From contig JBMFKU010000018.1 of the NCBI GenBank assembly GCA_049971805.1, forward strand, positions 1 to 28,390: 28,390 nt of DNA, read 5' to 3'. Position numbers and translations under genes: made by a program. The notes below the pieces were generated by a model, which saw only the letters and a program-made list of their open reading frames with translations, was not told where the DNA came from and did no database searches. This stretch comes from Caldisphaera sp. GTDB taxonomy: Archaea > Thermoproteota > Thermoprotei_A > Sulfolobales > Acidilobaceae. Shown piece by piece: positions 1,376-28,390 of the stretch (positions are counted from its first letter, which is position 1; each line of letters starts with the position of its first letter).

Positions 1376-1807
1376 TGATAAAATAAACGGCAAACCTCTT
1401 CTTTTAAATTGGTAATGCTTTTAATGTTTGTTTTAAGTAAAACATGGGGATTATATGCTTCTCTCAGATCAACTTGCTGTAGATAAGGAGCAGGAGCTGA
1501 TTATTATTACTCCTGCAATGCCTGAAGGAATTTATGAAGTTAATTATGAAAAAATAAGGATAAATGTTGTTCTTCTCCTTAAAAAAGGATGTTGAGGACC
1601 TTATCAAACATTTCATCAAATTTAACGAGAATGAAAGAAGGTAACAGTTCTTTAAGGAAGGTAAAGTAGGTTTTAAAAATACTTACAAGAAATACTATGA
1701 AAAATACAAGGATTTACTTAAAGTTAATGCTCAAACAATAATTCAGAAAAACAATGAGGCTTGGAATTCTTTCTTTTCATTTTTAAAGATGAAGAAGTGA
1801 AATTACC
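1376..1807 (+). pseudogene. tnpB: IS200/IS605 left end plus the 5' part of a tnpB pseudogene
   Basis: Left end is TGAT|AAAATAAACGGCAAACC, nearly the same as at 28225. The ATG at 1455 gives MLLSDQLAVDKEQELIIITPAMPEGIYEVNYEKIRINVVLLL. After a frameshift and stop it continues ERR*QFFKEGKVGFKNTYKKYYEKYKDLLKVNAQTIIQKNNEAWNSFFSFLKMKK, a recognisable crenarchaeal TnpB N-terminus. The RuvC part is absent. Confidence 0.85.
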
Positions 1808-10199: not shown

Positions 10200-10248
10200 A
10201 TCAGCTTCCCTCACTTAGAAGGGGCAAGGCTTGTCATTCTTTTTGTCA
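10200..10248 (-). repeat. Minimal ~45-bp single-hairpin IS605-end remnant (REP/PATE-like)
   Basis: Minus strand reads TGAC|AAAAAGAATGACAAGCCTTGCCCCTTCTAAGTGAGGGAAGCTGAT. It shares CAAGCCTTGCCCCTTCTA with the left ends of both family A elements. Confidence 0.7.
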
Positions 10249-17479: not shown

Positions 17480-17814
17480 TGACAAACGAAGGGCAAGCCT
17501 TGCCCCTTCTAGGGACGGGGTAAAGTTTTTAAATCCTGAATGTTTTAAAGTATTGCAGAATAAAAACGTGTCCCCATATAGTATGCTAGATAAGGGCTCT
17601 ACATATTCCTGAGTCCCAGGGAGACGGGAGTGGAGGGCAACTCCTGTTGAGGAAGGGTAATGGGCTGAAGAGCCGCCGATGGTCTACCGTTAAACGAATG
17701 GAGCGGGGTGGCTTTTGGCCACTAGCTATGAAGTAATGAAAATGAAGGCGGTAAACCATAAACCTATGATCTCTCTAAGGAAACCCTTGCCCTTCAGGAC
17801 GGGGAGGAGGTCAG
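17480..17814 (+). mobile_element. Non-autonomous IS200/IS605 mini-element, family A copy 1 (331 bp after TGAC)
   Basis: TGAC is followed by a left-end hairpin (CCTTGCCCCTTCTAGGGACGGGG), a TATA-like TTTTTAAA and a tnpB C-terminal scrap (TCPH...ALHIPESQG). It ends with a right-end hairpin, CCCTTGCCCTTCAGGACGGGGAGGAGGTCAG. A second copy lies inverted at 27161-27522. Confidence 0.92.
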
Positions 17815-24138: not shown

Positions 24139-26682
24139 ATGTCTAAGAAATCCTATATATTAATAGCAGTATTTCTTTTCATATTAATATTCGTTTCATA
24201 TTTAGGTCAAAGCTTTTCAATATTTAGCCCATCAAAAAATAGTATATGGCCTTATTCTTATACCTCTAAATTAAAAAACCAAACTATATATTTGCAAGGC
24301 CTAAAGAGCCCTGTTAAGATTATAATTGATAATTCAGGCGTTGCCCATATAATTGCTAATAATACCTATGATGCATTTTATGCCGAAGGTTATTATACTG
24401 CCTACATGAGGCTATTCCAACTAGAGTTATTCGGCTTAACAGGTGCAGGCAATTTAAGTTCATGGTTTGGCAACTCAACTTTAAGCACAGACCTATATTC
24501 TTATTATGTTGGATTTCCTCAAAACGCTAACTTTTCTTTAAATTATGTTAAGCAAAATTATCCAGTAATATATTCCTATTTGCAGGCCTATTCAGATGGA
24601 GTTAATGCTTACATAGCTAGAGCTGAGAGCTTGCATGAATTACCCCCAATATTCTATCTATTAAACATAAGACCCTACAACTTTACCCCATTTTATTCCA
24701 TTGCATGGGGAGAAGTTATGGCATGGGGATTAGCAAGCGGTTTTTGTGAAGAATCAGAGCTTTCCATAATTTATACACATTTGGGATATAATCTAACCCA
24801 AGAACTCTTCCCATATTACCCATATTACAGTAACGGCTCTTTAACTGCCATGCCTGGTAATGGAACTGTTAATGGTTTAAACCTTCAGAGCTTTAATATA
24901 AGTCCCTCTTATTTTTGGTCGCTAAACTTTTATGATAGCTTTGCAAATGGTTTATACAATGAAACATTGTATAAAGCGATGCCATTAATTGTTTCATCTC
25001 TTAATAAAATTTGCTCCGATCCACTAGGCTTTGTAGATTTAGGAAGCAACGAATGGGAAGTAACTGGTAATCATAGCTCTACGGGTTTTCCAATGATGGC
25101 AAACGATCCACACTTAACCTTATATGATCCTTCGTTATGGTTACCATTACAAATTGTTTCACCAGGTTTAAATGTTACTGGTTATGAGCTTGTGGGAGAG
25201 CCAGGAGTTTTAATAGGTCATACAGAAAACACTGCATGGGGCTTAACTACACCTTTAGGGGCATCTACCAACGCTTACCTTGAAATCGTTAACATGGATA
25301 ACAAATCCTATTTATATAATGGAGAATGGTTACCATTAAGGCAATATAATTTTACTTTATTAAACAAGAAATATACAATTTATTATACAAACAATGGACC
25401 ATTGATATCTTATAATAAAACTCTAAACATGGGAATGAGCCTCTATTGGGTTAACCAGTATTATCCATTCTTAACCCTTGTATCGGAGTTCCTATTAGAT
25501 AACTCGACAAATTTTGCCCAGCTATTAAATGCTGCAAGATATTGGAATGAGCCGGCTCAAAACTTGGCTATGGTTTCTAAAAATGAAACTGGTTTTATTA
25601 CTGCAGGACTTTATCCCTTAATAAGAATTAATTTACCAAACAATGAAAGCATTGAAGTTGTTGGTGCTAGAACAATTTTAAATGGATCAATACCAAACTA
25701 CGAGCCTATAGGCTATATTCCATTTAATTACTTACCACAATCAATAAATCCTGCAAGAGGTTTTGCATTTGCTCCAAATCAACCAACAGCTTATATAGAC
25801 TATCCTTATCCTTTTGTTGGAGGCTATTGGGTTTCCGATGGAAGAGCTTTAACGATTTATAGATACTTAAATTCACATAAAGATATAACAATACAAGAAA
25901 TGGAGTCTTTACAAGGAAATGTGACAGATTCTTGGGCTTCTATATTAACTCCGGTAATGGTTTCCTGTTTAGAGAACCAAAGCTACTCAAATAATTTTGA
26001 AAAAGGGGTTTCCGCATTATCAATCTGGAACTATACATTTTATCAAAACGAAGTTGCCCCAACCATTTATACATATACATTATTAAACATGATAAACAAT
26101 GTGATAAACCCAATAATTAATCAGCATGGTTTAAACCAATACAAGAATTTGTTAACAGGAACTGTTGGATTTTATGGAACTGATACTTTAATTACAAGCG
26201 ACATTGCTTATCTCGCGACCCATAATCCTTCTTCTCCTCTATTTAATGGTAGCTTTTGCAAAGTAGTAAATATATCTTATAATGAAGCTATAAACTATTT
26301 ATCAGAAAAGCTTGGTAATATGTCTAATTGGGAATGGGGTAAAGTCCATGAATTGCTTTTAGTAAATCCTGCCGGTATAACGTCACTTAATTATGGTCCT
26401 ATACCTATTTGGGGTGATGGTTTTACTCCATCCGCAGCTTATTTTAACTTTAATGGCACCATTTACATGCCATTAATTGTTAGCGAAGGACCTAGCTTAA
26501 GGGTAGTAAACTCTCCTGGAACAAATCAATTTTATTCCGTATTCCCCGGAGGACCTAGTGAAAATCCTGCAAGTCCTTGGTTTGAGACGCAATTGAATTC
26601 CTGGATGAACTTCAATTATTATCCATTTTCACCTATTGTAAGCATTAATGCAACATGGTATCTAATACCAAGAGGTGGGTGA
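24139..26682 (+). CDS. Membrane-anchored penicillin acylase family (S45) protein, paralog 2
   Basis: N-terminal TM helix, motifs DNSGVAHI and RLFQLE, nucleophile LGSNEWEVTG (Ser303), ANDPHL, WEWGKVH and PGGPSENP. Confidence 0.94.
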   Translation: MSKKSYILIAVFLFILIFVSYLGQSFSIFSPSKNSIWPYSYTSKLKNQTIYLQGLKSPVKIIIDNSGVAHIIANNTYDAFYAEGYYTAYMRLFQLELFGLTGAGNLSSWFGNSTLSTDLYSYYVGFPQNANFSLNYVKQNYPVIYSYLQAYSDGVNAYIARAESLHELPPIFYLLNIRPYNFTPFYSIAWGEVMAWGLASGFCEESELSIIYTHLGYNLTQELFPYYPYYSNGSLTAMPGNGTVNGLNLQSFNISPSYFWSLNFYDSFANGLYNETLYKAMPLIVSSLNKICSDPLGFVDLGSNEWEVTGNHSSTGFPMMANDPHLTLYDPSLWLPLQIVSPGLNVTGYELVGEPGVLIGHTENTAWGLTTPLGASTNAYLEIVNMDNKSYLYNGEWLPLRQYNFTLLNKKYTIYYTNNGPLISYNKTLNMGMSLYWVNQYYPFLTLVSEFLLDNSTNFAQLLNAARYWNEPAQNLAMVSKNETGFITAGLYPLIRINLPNNESIEVVGARTILNGSIPNYEPIGYIPFNYLPQSINPARGFAFAPNQPTAYIDYPYPFVGGYWVSDGRALTIYRYLNSHKDITIQEMESLQGNVTDSWASILTPVMVSCLENQSYSNNFEKGVSALSIWNYTFYQNEVAPTIYTYTLLNMINNVINPIINQHGLNQYKNLLTGTVGFYGTDTLITSDIAYLATHNPSSPLFNGSFCKVVNISYNEAINYLSEKLGNMSNWEWGKVHELLLVNPAGITSLNYGPIPIWGDGFTPSAAYFNFNGTIYMPLIVSEGPSLRVVNSPGTNQFYSVFPGGPSENPASPWFETQLNSWMNFNYYPFSPIVSINATWYLIPRGG

Positions 26683-26683
26683 A

Positions 26684-27040
26684 ATGAGCAAAGTTAGTAA
26701 TATAATAATAGTAGTAGTCTCTGTAGCCTTAACTTTAATCCTATCATATTTTATCCCTTATGTATGGATTGGTATAATACCAGGTGTCATTATAGGATTT
26801 ATGAGAAGAAGATCGATAAGGCTTATTTCAGGGTTTCTGATAGGATTTTTAGGCTCATTAATAATGTACTTTGTATATCCAATCAATTATTTTGTCCCAT
26901 TAGCTAAAAGTGTTGGAGAATTAGCTGGAATATCTTGGTTAATATTGATATTAGCATTTCCCTTATTATTTGGTCTAGTAGAACTATCAGCTGCAGGAAT
27001 TGTAGGAGAAATTATTGCTATAACAAGAAAAAATAAATAA
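26684..27040 (+). CDS. Small Gly-rich membrane protein (about 4 TM) coupled to acylase 2
   Basis: The ATG lies 1 nt after the acylase stop, with a GGTG RBS. 118 aa, same layout as 13368..13724 (AGAVAGF vs VGELAGI). Confidence 0.85.
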   Translation: MSKVSNIIIVVVSVALTLILSYFIPYVWIGIIPGVIIGFMRRRSIRLISGFLIGFLGSLIMYFVYPINYFVPLAKSVGELAGISWLILILAFPLLFGLVELSAAGIVGEIIAITRKNK

Positions 27041-27142
27041 TTTTTTATCTTTTAGTAATTCAATATTAAAAAGGATTTTGTATATATTACTAGTATTTTT
27101 TAATTTTTCCCATAATAATTTTTATCATAAACGCTGAAGAGC

Positions 27143-27365
27143 GATGTTTATTTTAATTCTCTGACCTCCTCCCCGTCCTGAAGGGCGAGGGTTTTCCCAG
27201 GGCGGTTCACAGGTTTATGGTTTACCGCCTTCATTTTCATTACTTCATAGCTAGTGGCCAAAAGCCACCCCGCTCCATTCGTTTAACGGTAGACCATCGG
27301 CGGCTCTTCAGCCCATTACCCTTCCTCAACAGGAGTTGCCCTCCACTCCCGTCTCCTAGGGAGTC
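27143..27365 (-). ncRNA. Putative TnpB omegaRNA (scaffold plus guide AGAATTAAAATAAACATC)
   Basis: Same scaffold as 17610-17814, with a different 3' flank. Confidence 0.7.
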
Positions 27366-27522
27366 GGAGGGATTCGTATCTGTGTGGGGATACTCAACAC
27401 ATTTAATACGCCCGTTATGGGCTTCCCCACACCTTATTGTTTTCACAATACCTTAACACATTTTAGAATTTAAAATTTTACCCTGCCCTTAGAAGGGGCA
27501 AGGCTTGTTGTTCGTATTGTCA
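27161..27522 (-). mobile_element. Non-autonomous IS200/IS605 mini-element, family A copy 2 (358 bp after TGAC)
   Basis: TGAC at 27522-27519 is followed by a left hairpin, a TnpB Zn-ribbon scrap (CGEAHNGRIK...PHT) and the scaffold. Right end is CCCTCGCCCTTCAGGACGGGGAGGAGGTCAG at 27161. Confidence 0.92.
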
Positions 27523-27572
27523 GACCTCACACGGCTCATCATAAATTTCAGACCGAAATCGGTCATCATCCA
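27518..27572 (-). ncRNA. Archaeal C/D-box methylation guide sRNA
   Basis: Minus strand reads box C ATGATGA (27569-27563), guide CCGATTTCGGT, box D' CTGA, AATTT, box C' ATGATGA, guide GCCGTGTGAGGT, box D CTGA (27523-27520). All four boxes are consensus, with 11- and 12-nt spacers. Confidence 0.9.
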
Positions 27573-27580
27573 CAGCTAAT

Positions 27581-28081
27581 TTATTTCTTAATTCCCCATA
27601 ATTTTTTAGATATTATTTTTGTTCCAGCACTAACAGCATTTAATACCTTTGGATCTAGATCTATTCTATTGTTTTCAGGTGGGCTACTTAATTTACTTAT
27701 ATCCATACTTAAACCCAATAAATAAGATAAAACCTCTCTAGATCCTTTATATTTTTCACCTTTTATAAAGTCTTTGAAATATGGTATCCAAGAAGTTGGT
27801 TCCCTGCTTCTTCTTATTAAAATTAAATATCCTCCAACCGATGCTCCTATACTTTCTTTTAATTTATAAGCATTATAATTATTAGATTTGCTTTCTTCCT
27901 CTATAAGGTTTTCTTCTTTCAAAGCAGATACCAAAGAATTAAAAATTTCTTCAGTTTTTTTACCTCCTATCCTTATTAATGTATATTCTCTTTGTTTAGG
28001 TGCACTACTTTTAAATAAAATTACAGGCCCTTTATTGGTTTTCCTTAGGGCTAATTTATATGTTCTTAGCTCCAAGCTCAT
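27581..28081 (-). CDS. Hypothetical basic soluble protein (166 aa from the ATG at 28081)
   Basis: RBS GAGGTG lies upstream of the ATG at 28081 and codon usage fits the host. No family confidently recognised. Confidence 0.8.
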   Translation of the reverse strand: MSLELRTYKLALRKTNKGPVILFKSSAPKQREYTLIRIGGKKTEEIFNSLVSALKEENLIEEESKSNNYNAYKLKESIGASVGGYLILIRRSREPTSWIPYFKDFIKGEKYKGSREVLSYLLGLSMDISKLSSPPENNRIDLDPKVLNAVSAGTKIISKKLWGIKK

Positions 28082-28170
28082 TTCTCTCACCTCATTTCTA
28101 TTGTAATAGTCTAATACAAGAATTTAAATATAATTATTTTTGCTGTTTTAGAATTTAAATAAAATTTTAT

Positions 28171-28215: not shown

Positions 28216-28224
28216 ACTCCAGCT

Positions 28225-28390
28225 TGATAAAATAAACGACAAATCTTGTCATTTTAAGGTGAGGTAAAGTTTAAAGTTTGTTCTAAAAATAATTAGATAT
28301 GAATAGCTATCAAGGGTATTCTTCACTATATGAGGTAGGCCTCTACTCGTTGCCAAATTAAAGAAAAAGGAGGGCGAGATTTCTCTCTTA
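28225..28390 (+). mobile_element. Family B IS200/IS605 mini-element, cut by the window end
   Basis: TGAT|AAAATAAACGACAAATC...GGTAAAGTTTAAAGTTTGTTCTAAAAATAATTAGATA...GTATTCTTCACTATA...CCAAATTAAAGAAAAAGGAGGGCGAGATTTCTCTCTTA is colinear with the reverse complement of 4312-4471. Confidence 0.85.

What the first reader, a model, noticed from the sequence alone, without database searches (positions are those of the whole stretch)
27143..27572. omegaRNA mini-element inserted at box D of the C/D sRNA: two RNA-guided systems in tandem
Seen: the element's target tetranucleotide TGAC overlaps box D (CTGA-C). The insertion therefore falls 1 nt after box D on the same strand, leaving all boxes intact; the reconstructed empty site is CTGAC|AGAATT. 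Inference: box D followed by C is a ready-made target next to a highly expressed RNA. Read-through could give a gene-sRNA-omegaRNA transcript, and the omegaRNA guide would direct TnpB to the empty sRNA locus. It may be a chance hit of a 4-nt target or a safe-harbour preference.
Basis: partly seen in the sequence, partly recalled or inferred. Interest (0 to 1): 0.7.

Follow-up and report, generated by a model that had tools for sequence, protein, structure and literature searches.

The report
Transposon remnant beside a methylation-guide RNA
A small non-coding relic of an IS605-type transposon, still carrying its guide-RNA region, sits one base after a conserved archaeal RNA-methylation guide gene, and the evidence says this is an accidental hit on a four-letter target rather than a preferred landing site.

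Summary
On the minus strand there is a canonical C/D box sRNA at 27569-27520. Box D plus the next C forms TGAC (27522-27519). A 358-nt mini-element follows at 27518-27161.

The sRNA is real. It is found in 6 of 6 congeneric genomes and in 2 genomes of another genus, always at an empty site. [quoted passage not shown]

The element is an internal-deletion derivative of tnpA-tnpB IS605-type transposons. It keeps about 80 nt of the left end and the last ~220 nt (tnpB 3' end, omegaRNA region, right end). The helices of that region show compensatory changes.

A preference for box D is not supported. Of 60 left-end junctions in 325 genomes of the order, only this one follows a C/D motif. C precedes TGAC in 14 of 60. 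A metagenome scan found no other real case.

The same-strand arrangement follows automatically from the strandedness of TGAC. The assembly holds no tnpA and only one frameshifted, truncated tnpB, so RNA-guided homing to the empty sRNA site is currently hypothetical. Read-through transcription could not be tested.

Verdict: an ordinary MITE insertion with an interesting neighbour.

The parts
27581..28090 (-). 169-aa ORF of unknown family. Its stop codon lies 11 nt upstream of box C, and it is the conserved upstream neighbour of the sRNA.
   Evidence: ORF list. No Pfam family. ORF plus sRNA align together in 6 of 6 same-genus genomes.
27520..27569 (-). C/D box sRNA: box C 27569-27563, D' guide 27562-27552, box D' 27551-27548, box C' 27542-27536, D guide 27535-27524, box D 27523-20.
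   Evidence: Coordinates. Orthologues with conserved guides in 8 loci. The D guide pairs 11 of 12 with the tRNA-Val(CAC) anticodon loop, with C34 at the fifth position from box D. Fibrillarin gene present. No Rfam family reached its threshold.
27519..27522 (-). TGAC: the insertion target of the element family and the presumed transposon-adjacent motif. It is made of the last three bases of box D plus the next C.
   Evidence: TGAC precedes 8 of 8 left ends in this genome. It precedes 5 of 6 further left ends found with a pattern that allowed a substitution.
27441..27518 (-). Left end of the mini-element, with its subterminal hairpin.
   Evidence: 76-85% identical to the first ~82 nt (TGAC included) of full tnpA-tnpB elements L157 and L158.
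27161..27378 (-). Right ~220 nt of the mini-element. It is homologous to the tnpB 3' end, omegaRNA scaffold and right-end hairpin, and it ends GGAGGAGGTCAG at 27161.
   Evidence: 77-80% identical to the last ~225 nt of the full elements. Translated remnant of the TnpB C-terminus at 27431-27181 in two frames. Helices with compensatory changes.
27161..27518 (-). Whole non-autonomous IS605-type mini-element (358 nt), copy 2.
27141..27160 (-). Right flank directly after the right end. By analogy with TnpB systems this is the guide part of an omegaRNA made from this copy.
   Evidence: Position only, so this is inference. The exact first 16 nt occur once in the genome, at this locus.
17480..17814 (+). 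Copy 1 of the same mini-element family (TGAC 17480-17483, element 17484-17814). There is no C/D sRNA upstream.

Best explanation
A non-autonomous IS200/IS605 (IS605-type) mini-element inserted, in this lineage only, into a TGAC that happens to be formed by box D (CTGA) plus the following C of a conserved C/D box sRNA gene. The element is a deletion derivative that keeps the left end and the tnpB-3'/omegaRNA/right-end segment.

Shown:
- The sRNA is an ancestral, conserved gene whose D guide fits 2'-O-methylation of C34 in tRNA-Val(CAC).
- The element family inserts 3' of TGAC in one orientation.
- All four sRNA boxes and both guides are untouched.
- No intact tnpA or tnpB is in the assembly.

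Inferred:
- A Y1 TnpA supplied in trans inserted the single-stranded element 3' of TGAC.
- The hit on box D was a chance draw among several hundred non-coding TGAC sites.
- It persisted because an insertion 1 nt past box D does not damage the sRNA.
- If a cognate TnpB were present, an omegaRNA from this copy would target TGAC plus the right flank, which is the empty sRNA site. In this genome the element is most likely an immobile relic.
For: sRNA reality:
- The locus matches in 6 of 6 same-genus genomes, and in 13 of 41 relatives overall including G000.
- Eight orthologous sRNAs have conserved guides. Every one has CTGAC and no element after it.
- The D guide pairs 11 of 12 with tRNA-Val(CAC); the relatives' guide would pair 12 of 12.
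- A fibrillarin gene is present.

Element identity:
- The same left end precedes Y1_Tnp plus OrfB_IS605/TNB genes in L115 and L120.
- The mini-element aligns to both ends of the full elements, and TnpB C-terminal remnants lie inside it.
- The right-end hairpin lies 100-170 nt downstream of TNB-domain hits on the same strand at 12 places in relatives (cross-read).
- Covariation: 37 pairs, 87.9% of cells paired against 36-56% when slid, 13 pairs changed on both sides, 0 of 500 shuffles reach the score.

Chance rather than preference:
- 61 left-end pattern matches occur in 25 of 325 genomes, with 0 for the control pattern.
- Of 60 distinct flanks, 1 has C/D boxes upstream, and that is the discovery case. 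C is at position -1 in 14 of 60.
- The metagenome scan for box C'-guide-CTGAC-left end gave 1 match, in a GC-rich stretch with no element hairpin.

Orphan state:
- There are 0 Y1_Tnp and 0 OrfB_IS605 matches and 2 TNB fragments.
- tblastn finds only fragments.
- The C21 copy is frameshifted and cut off at about residue 370.
Against: - Within this one genome the hit looks improbable. There are about 577 non-coding TGAC sites on rough gene calls, but only 2 strict-pattern C/D genes, both followed by C. Eight junctions therefore give an expectation near 0.03.
- The order-wide survey requires one left-end consensus and TGAC itself. It misses variant ends, may include a few non-element matches (odd spacers in L106, L110, L112/L113, L137), and its genomes are related.
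- The number of C/D genes in the other genomes was not measured, so the null rate there is extrapolated from G000.
- The assembly has 66 contigs and several element copies sit at contig ends, so an intact tnpA/tnpB copy could be unassembled.
- No RNA data bear on expression.
Confidence: 0.8

Rival explanations
1. Safe-harbour preference: the element family, or selection acting on its insertions, favours the TGAC formed by box D plus C of C/D sRNA genes. Such sites are harmless and lie beside strongly expressed RNAs.
For: In G000 the class 'box C'-guide-CTGAC' is a single site among 3858 TGAC sites, yet it is occupied. All 8 orthologous sRNAs keep C after box D, so the target is stably available.
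Against: None of the other 59 junctions in the order is at a box D, and C at -1 is at the random level, 14 of 60. No real second case was found in metagenome contigs. All 8 orthologous sRNA loci are empty although several of those genomes carry many copies, for example 20 and 19 matches in G002 and G003. The finding was picked because it looked special.
Confidence: 0.06
2. Functional coupling: transcription from the ORF169/sRNA unit reads through into the element and supplies the omegaRNA, or the left-end hairpin plus T4 tract now ends the sRNA transcript. The tandem would then be kept by selection.
For: On the sRNA strand there is no run of five or more T between box D and 27072, about 89 nt beyond the right end; only T4 runs occur at 27475 and 27263. 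The sRNA and the omegaRNA region are co-oriented. A 147-nt block of the omegaRNA region is 100% identical between copies 1 and 2 while the flanks are much more diverged.
Against: Co-orientation is forced by the target strand. There is no intact TnpB to use an omegaRNA. The arrangement is found in one genome only. Expression was not measured.
Confidence: 0.1
3. The C/D motif is not a working sRNA gene, being a chance motif or a passenger of the mobile element, so nothing RNA-guided is adjacent to the element.
For: No Rfam family reached its gathering score in the window. No rRNA target was found within 2 mismatches in a congener's 16S and 23S. The genome yields few canonical C/D candidates.
Against: The four boxes and both guides are conserved at the same syntenic place, after the ORF169 homologue, in 6 of 6 congeners that lack the element. 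The guide matches tRNA anticodon loops with the correct fifth-position rule. The reversed-genome control gives 0.
Confidence: 0.02

Closest known systems
MITE-like repeats of Acidianus hospitalis W1 that carry the downstream end of orfB (You et al. 2011, PMC3119797; passages read)
   Same: Short non-coding repeats in a member of the Sulfolobales with a conserved terminal sequence and, at one end, a remnant of the C-terminal part of OrfB (TnpB). They were reported as multi-copy in several crenarchaeal genomes.
   Different: That paper predates omegaRNA and gives no target site or link to sRNA genes. Sequence relatedness to the present family was not tested here.
PATEs, minimal IS200/IS605 elements that often encode omegaRNAs (Meers et al. 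2023 preprint, PMC10055086; passages read)
   Same: Left and right ends with hairpins, no protein gene, an omegaRNA that must be used in trans by a TnpB encoded elsewhere, and mobilisation in trans by TnpA.
   Different: Those are bacterial (Geobacillus) elements with other target motifs. Here the target is TGAC, the host is an archaeon, and no trans-acting TnpA or TnpB is seen in the assembly.
Full-length tnpA-tnpB IS605-type elements in two genomes of another family of the same order (loci L157 and L158)
   Same: Left end (~82 nt, 76-85% identity) and last ~225 nt (77-80% identity) align with the mini-element. Same TGAC flank and same GGAGGAGGTCAG end.
   Different: They are about 1.8 kb with Y1 transposase and a 383-437-aa TnpB. 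The mini-element lacks about 1.4 kb of internal sequence.
Pyrobaculum sR45, a C/D sRNA guide to C34 of tRNA-Val, and the MITE-like C/D sRNA copies of P. calidifontis (Lui et al. 2018, PMC6009581; passages and section 22 read)
   Same: A C/D sRNA whose guide targets the wobble C34 of tRNA-Val, and an archaeal precedent for contact between C/D sRNAs and mobile DNA.
   Different: Homology with sR45 was not tested. In P. calidifontis the sRNA-like sequence lies inside a repeat with inverted ends, whereas here an unrelated IS605-type element sits next to a stationary sRNA gene.

Membership tests
IS200/IS605-derived non-autonomous element (PATE/MITE) | Ends homologous to the left and right ends of an element that encodes a Y1 TnpA and/or TnpB | tested here: met
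   Alignment to L157 and L158 at both ends. Pfam Y1_Tnp, OrfB_IS605 and TNB on their ORFs.
IS200/IS605-derived non-autonomous element (PATE/MITE) | Subterminal hairpins on the same strand at both ends, with no long inverted terminal repeats and no target duplication | tested here: met
   Read directly from copies. Similar GC-rich hairpins lie near both ends in direct orientation. Flanks differ on the two sides apart from the TGAC/GTCA letters.
IS200/IS605-derived non-autonomous element (PATE/MITE) | Insertion 3' of a fixed short target next to the left end | tested here: met
   TGAC at 8 of 8 left ends in G000 and at 5 of 6 elsewhere, the sixth being TGAT.
IS200/IS605-derived non-autonomous element (PATE/MITE) | No intact protein gene inside | tested here: met
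   Only 68-79-aa mechanical ORFs. TnpB C-terminal remnant split over two frames.
IS200/IS605-derived non-autonomous element (PATE/MITE) | Mobilisable by a TnpA in the same cell | tested here: not met
   No Y1_Tnp match and no tblastn hit with three TnpA queries in the 96.6%-complete, 66-contig assembly. An unassembled copy cannot be excluded.
omegaRNA of TnpB | Encoded at the tnpB 3' end and right end, with the guide read from the flank beyond the right end | tested here: met
   By homology of position only. The retained ~220 nt corresponds to the last ~225 nt of full elements whose tnpB ORF stops 20 nt before the element end.
omegaRNA of TnpB | Conserved secondary structure | tested here: met
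   Hand-set helices on 25 copies: 87.9% of cells paired, 13 of 37 pairs with changes on both sides, 0 of 500 shuffles reach the score, slid controls 36-56%. Caveat: the structure was drawn from these same sequences, and the RNAalifold global fold was weak.
omegaRNA of TnpB | Transcribed and processed RNA bound by a cognate TnpB | not testable with these tools
   No RNA run holds the stretch. The only cognate tnpB in the assembly is broken.
Archaeal C/D box sRNA | Boxes C, D', C', D with guides of about 10-12 nt, total about 50 nt | tested here: met
   All four boxes are consensus, the guides are 11 and 12 nt, and the total is 50 nt.
Archaeal C/D box sRNA | Guide complementary to a stable RNA, with the target nucleotide opposite the fifth position from box D | tested here: met
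   tRNA-Val(CAC) C34. Weaker matches to tRNA-Val(UAC), tRNA-Ala(CGC) and an intron-containing CAU-anticodon tRNA.
Archaeal C/D box sRNA | Conservation of boxes and guides in relatives | tested here: met
   8 orthologues in 2 genera.
Archaeal C/D box sRNA | Expression and assembly with L7Ae, Nop5 and fibrillarin | not testable with these tools
   Only the presence of a fibrillarin gene was checked.

The most novel reading that the evidence does not exclude
The insertion has turned a housekeeping sRNA gene into the driver of a transposon guide RNA. Transcription of the ORF169-sRNA unit would run through the element, which has no T5 terminator before 27072, and yield an omegaRNA whose guide matches the vacant sRNA locus. 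Any TnpB entering the cell on a virus or plasmid would then be armed at once to re-home the element next to an essential tRNA-modification guide. This would be a case of one RNA-guided system riding on the expression signals of another.
Probability: 0.08. Interest if true: 0.55.

Novelty: new member of a known kind. Interest (0 to 1): 0.27.

Why it matters
Practical points:
- C/D sRNA genes in TnpB-rich archaea carry a built-in TGAC whenever box D is followed by C, so they can be hit by this IS605 family without harm.
- The case defines TGAC as the target and likely transposon-adjacent motif of a family that spans several families of the order. It also gives the boundaries of that family's mini-elements.
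- It adds an unannotated, conserved tRNA-directed C/D sRNA.

It does not reveal a new mechanism. The tandem of two RNA-guided systems is a by-product of a 4-nt target. The most useful by-product may be the side observation that the sRNA's second guide matches precursor-only parts of its tRNA targets.

Tried and rejected
- Rfam at gathering thresholds on the whole window: 0 matches.
- rRNA targets: the assembly has no 16S or 23S. In a congener's rRNA operon no guide match within 2 mismatches lay convincingly on the rRNA strand, so tRNA targets were pursued instead.
- Empty-site allele, exact search: a 30-nt stretch of the sRNA found 0 metagenome contigs.
- Empty-site allele, public runs: no RNA holder is listed, and 4 DNA runs are kept as contigs. 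Laid on 26600-28100, the contigs break inside the repeat. One crosses the right-end junction (26600-27189). No contig covered 27569-28100, and no joint skipped the element. This says nothing either way.
- Full-length partner next to the best DNA matches in congeners: none of 10 loci inspected had a TnpB-like ORF beside the mini-element. The partners were found instead through the left-end pattern.
- RNAalifold on the 25-copy alignment gave a weak global fold with doubtful long-range pairs. Block-wise alifold mostly failed because of alignment register. Helices were then set by hand.
- Strict and relaxed C/D scans of the genome gave only about 5 convincing sRNA candidates, too few for a within-genome enrichment test.
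- Earlier notes of this scan: two look-ups returned nothing.
- A paper on a Sulfolobus TnpB (PMC11043419) has no mention of TGAC. PMC12558985 was seen as an outline only.
- Literature searches found no report of an IS200/IS605 element inserted at a C/D sRNA box D. These searches cover only the held open-access library.

Full report
**1. What is in the sequence**

On the minus strand, 11 nt after the stop codon of a 169-aa ORF (27581-28090, no Pfam family), lies a 50-nt unit with all four consensus boxes of an archaeal C/D sRNA:
- box C ATGATGA, 27569-27563
- an 11-nt guide
- box D' CTGA, 27551-27548
- a 5-nt spacer
- box C' ATGATGA, 27542-27536
- a 12-nt guide
- box D CTGA, 27523-27520

The next base is C (27519). 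A repeat then begins at 27518 and ends ...GGAGGAGGTCAG at 27161.

A strict four-box pattern matches only two places in the 1.52-Mb genome and none in the reversed genome. Box C'-like TGATGA followed at 10-13 nt by CTGAC occurs once.

**2. The sRNA is a real, ancestral gene**

A search with the ORF 3' half plus the sRNA matched 13 of 41 related genomes, including G000 and 6 of 6 of the same genus.
- The sRNA itself was recovered in 8 loci: six congeners and two genomes of another genus. The boxes are retained and both guides are nearly invariant.
- A ninth locus (L012) matched the sRNA part, but my motif scans did not pick it up and I did not inspect it.
- In all 8, box D is followed by C and then by ordinary flank, not by the element. 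The TGAC therefore pre-dates the insertion, and the occupied state is specific to this lineage.
- In four congeners the flank runs almost directly into the stop codon of the convergent membrane-protein gene (read).

The assembly has no rRNA genes, and a congener's rRNA operon gave no convincing guide match.

The D guide does pair with tRNAs:
- It pairs 11 of 12 with the anticodon stem-loop of tRNA-Val(CAC) at C5:2420-2494. The relatives' guide would pair 12 of 12.
- C34 lies opposite the fifth guide position from box D.
- Weaker matches are to tRNA-Val(UAC), tRNA-Ala(CGC) and an intron-containing tRNA with anticodon CAU.

Lui et al. 2018 list a Pyrobaculum guide (sR45) to C34 of tRNA-Val (PMC6009581, passages), so this is a known kind of target. 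A fibrillarin gene is present. Rfam has no family that reaches threshold here.

**3. The element is an IS605-type deletion derivative that keeps the omegaRNA region**

BLAST finds two more full copies in the genome: window 17484-17814, and C28. It also finds end fragments at contig ends and several shorter relatives.
- All 8 left ends follow TGAC.
- The 4 right ends shown finish with the same 12 nt and then diverge.
- Both ends carry similar GC-rich hairpins in direct orientation. This is the IS200/IS605 arrangement rather than that of inverted-repeat MITEs.

A left-end pattern found 61 matches in 25 of 325 genomes of the order, with none for the control pattern.
- In two of these loci the left end is followed by a Y1 transposase and a TnpB (Pfam Y1_Tnp, OrfB_IS605, TNB). 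In a third it is followed by TnpB alone.
- The complete elements are about 1.8 kb, and tnpB stops 20 nt before the element end.
- The mini-element aligns to their first ~82 nt (76-85% identity) and to their last ~225 nt (77-80% identity).
- The TnpB C-terminus can still be read in two frames inside the mini-element, at 27431-27181.
- Independently, the right-end hairpin lies 100-170 nt downstream of TNB-domain hits on the same strand at 12 places in relatives.

The retained right part is the region that encodes the omegaRNA in characterised TnpB elements (established knowledge; Meers et al. preprint PMC10055086, passages).

On an alignment of 25 copies I set six local helices by hand, which the tool counted as seven.
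- 87.9% of cells pair, against 36-56% when the partners are slid.
- 13 of 37 pairs change on both sides.
- No shuffle of 500 reaches the covariation score.
- One helix has compensatory changes at 6 of 7 pairs.
- Caveats: the structure was derived from these sequences, and RNAalifold's own global fold was weak.

**4. Is box D a preferred site?**

I extracted the flank of every left-end match: 60 distinct flanks from 61 matches.
- Only the window's own junction has box C or C' motifs at the right distances upstream.
- One other flank (L155) has a TGAAGA at -22, but no CTGA and no box C.
- C precedes TGAC in 14 of 60, the random expectation, so CTGA is not favoured.

A scan of the metagenome contig collection for box C'-guide-CTGAC-left end returned one match. 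It lies in a GC-rich stretch without the element hairpin, so I read it as chance.

In G000 there are 3858 TGAC sites. About 577 are outside my rough ORF calls. The two strict-pattern C/D candidates are both followed by C. By my own arithmetic, with about 2 suitable sites among 577:
- 8 junctions give an expectation near 0.03
- 60 junctions give an expectation near 0.2

The single hit is thus mildly unlikely within this genome. It was selected for notice, and it is not replicated in 59 other junctions or in the 8 empty orthologous loci, even though G002 and G003 carry 20 and 19 matches to the element.

Limits of this test:
- the pattern demands one left-end consensus
- a few matches may not be element ends
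- the genomes are related
- sRNA numbers in the other genomes were not measured

**5. Orientation, read-through and homing**

IS200/IS605 elements insert 3' of the target on one strand. A TGAC on the sRNA sense strand therefore forces the omegaRNA region to be co-oriented with the sRNA, and the tandem arrangement carries no extra information.

On that strand there is no T5 run until 27072, about 89 nt past the right end. T4 runs lie at 27475 and 27263. Read-through is therefore possible but untested.

The 16 nt after the right end occur once in the genome, at this locus. By the known mechanism an omegaRNA from this copy would specify TGAC plus that flank, which is the vacant site.

The assembly lacks the proteins needed:
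- no Y1 transposase
- no OrfB_IS605 domain
- only two TNB fragments
- the one cognate tnpB piece, at the end of contig C21, is frameshifted and cut off at about residue 370, where it abuts part of an acyl-CoA-synthetase-like gene

The MAG is 96.6% complete in 66 contigs, so an unassembled intact copy cannot be excluded.

**6. Comparison with what is known**
- Mini-elements that keep the orfB 3' end were described in Acidianus hospitalis in 2011 (PMC3119797).
- PATEs that often encode omegaRNAs used in trans are noted by Meers et al..
- Contact between C/D sRNAs and mobile DNA in archaea has a precedent of a different kind, the MITE-like sRNA copies of Pyrobaculum calidifontis (PMC6009581, section 22).
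- My three literature searches found no report of an IS605-type element placed at a box D. They cover only the held open-access library.

**7. Verdict**

The best-supported reading is a neutral, chance insertion of a now orphan MITE into a 4-nt target that box D plus C happens to supply.

This is a new member of known kinds: an IS605-derived omegaRNA-bearing MITE and a tRNA-C34 C/D sRNA. Interest is low to moderate.

Noticed in passing
window 27552-27562 (D' guide); G000 C2:31720-31829 (minus strand); loci L168, L169, L172: The sRNA's D' guide is complementary (10 of 11) to a stretch inside the 36-nt intron of a tRNA with anticodon CAU. The D guide pairs across that tRNA's exon-intron border with C34 at the fifth position. 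The intron stretch is kept in two congeners. In another genus both the guide and the intron stretch differ yet still pair 10 of 11 (that tRNA reads CGU at the anticodon). This suggests the sRNA acts on precursor tRNAs.
   Followed up: partly
G000 C5:19704-19714 (5' leader of tRNA-Val(UAC)); L176: The same D' guide also matches (10 of 11) the 5' leader, positions about -17 to -7, of tRNA-Val(UAC). That tRNA's anticodon loop is a D-guide target with a G-U at position 34. A 10 of 11 match counting G-U is kept in one congener and is weaker in another.
   Followed up: partly
window 28224-28390 (runs to the contig end): A different ~167-nt repeat, with more than 30 matches across the genome at 72-93% identity, lies upstream of ORF169. 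The ORF169-sRNA unit is therefore flanked by mobile or repeated DNA on both sides. Its nature was not examined.
   Followed up: no
window 17620-17766 and 27209-27355 (approximate): Copies 1 and 2 of the mini-element share a 147-nt block of the omegaRNA region that is 100% identical, while the rest of the elements is much more diverged. This mosaic suggests recombination or conversion between copies, or recent derivation of that block.
   Followed up: partly
window 10214-10248 (minus strand), window 1636-1797: A solitary left-end fragment follows TGAC at 10248-10245. A short translated remnant of the TnpB N-terminal region (residues ~39-108) lies at 1636-1797. Together these are further decayed IS605-type debris in the window.
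   Followed up: no
G000 whole genome: TGAC is markedly under-represented: 3858 sites on both strands against 6242 for the same letters reversed and about 8700 expected from base composition (my arithmetic). I did not test whether this relates to pressure from TGAC-targeting elements or nucleases.
   Followed up: no
G000 C32:9987-10018; L027 (G040:C54): Ultra-short forms of the element, about 45 nt, consist of TGAC followed by a single hairpin that joins left-end and right-end sequence and ends GGTCA(G).
   Followed up: no
L107 (G006:C9) and other left-end flanks: In some junctions the TGA of TGAC is the stop codon of the upstream gene, so the element sits directly after a coding region. Gene 3' ends may be a common tolerated location. 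This was not counted.
   Followed up: no
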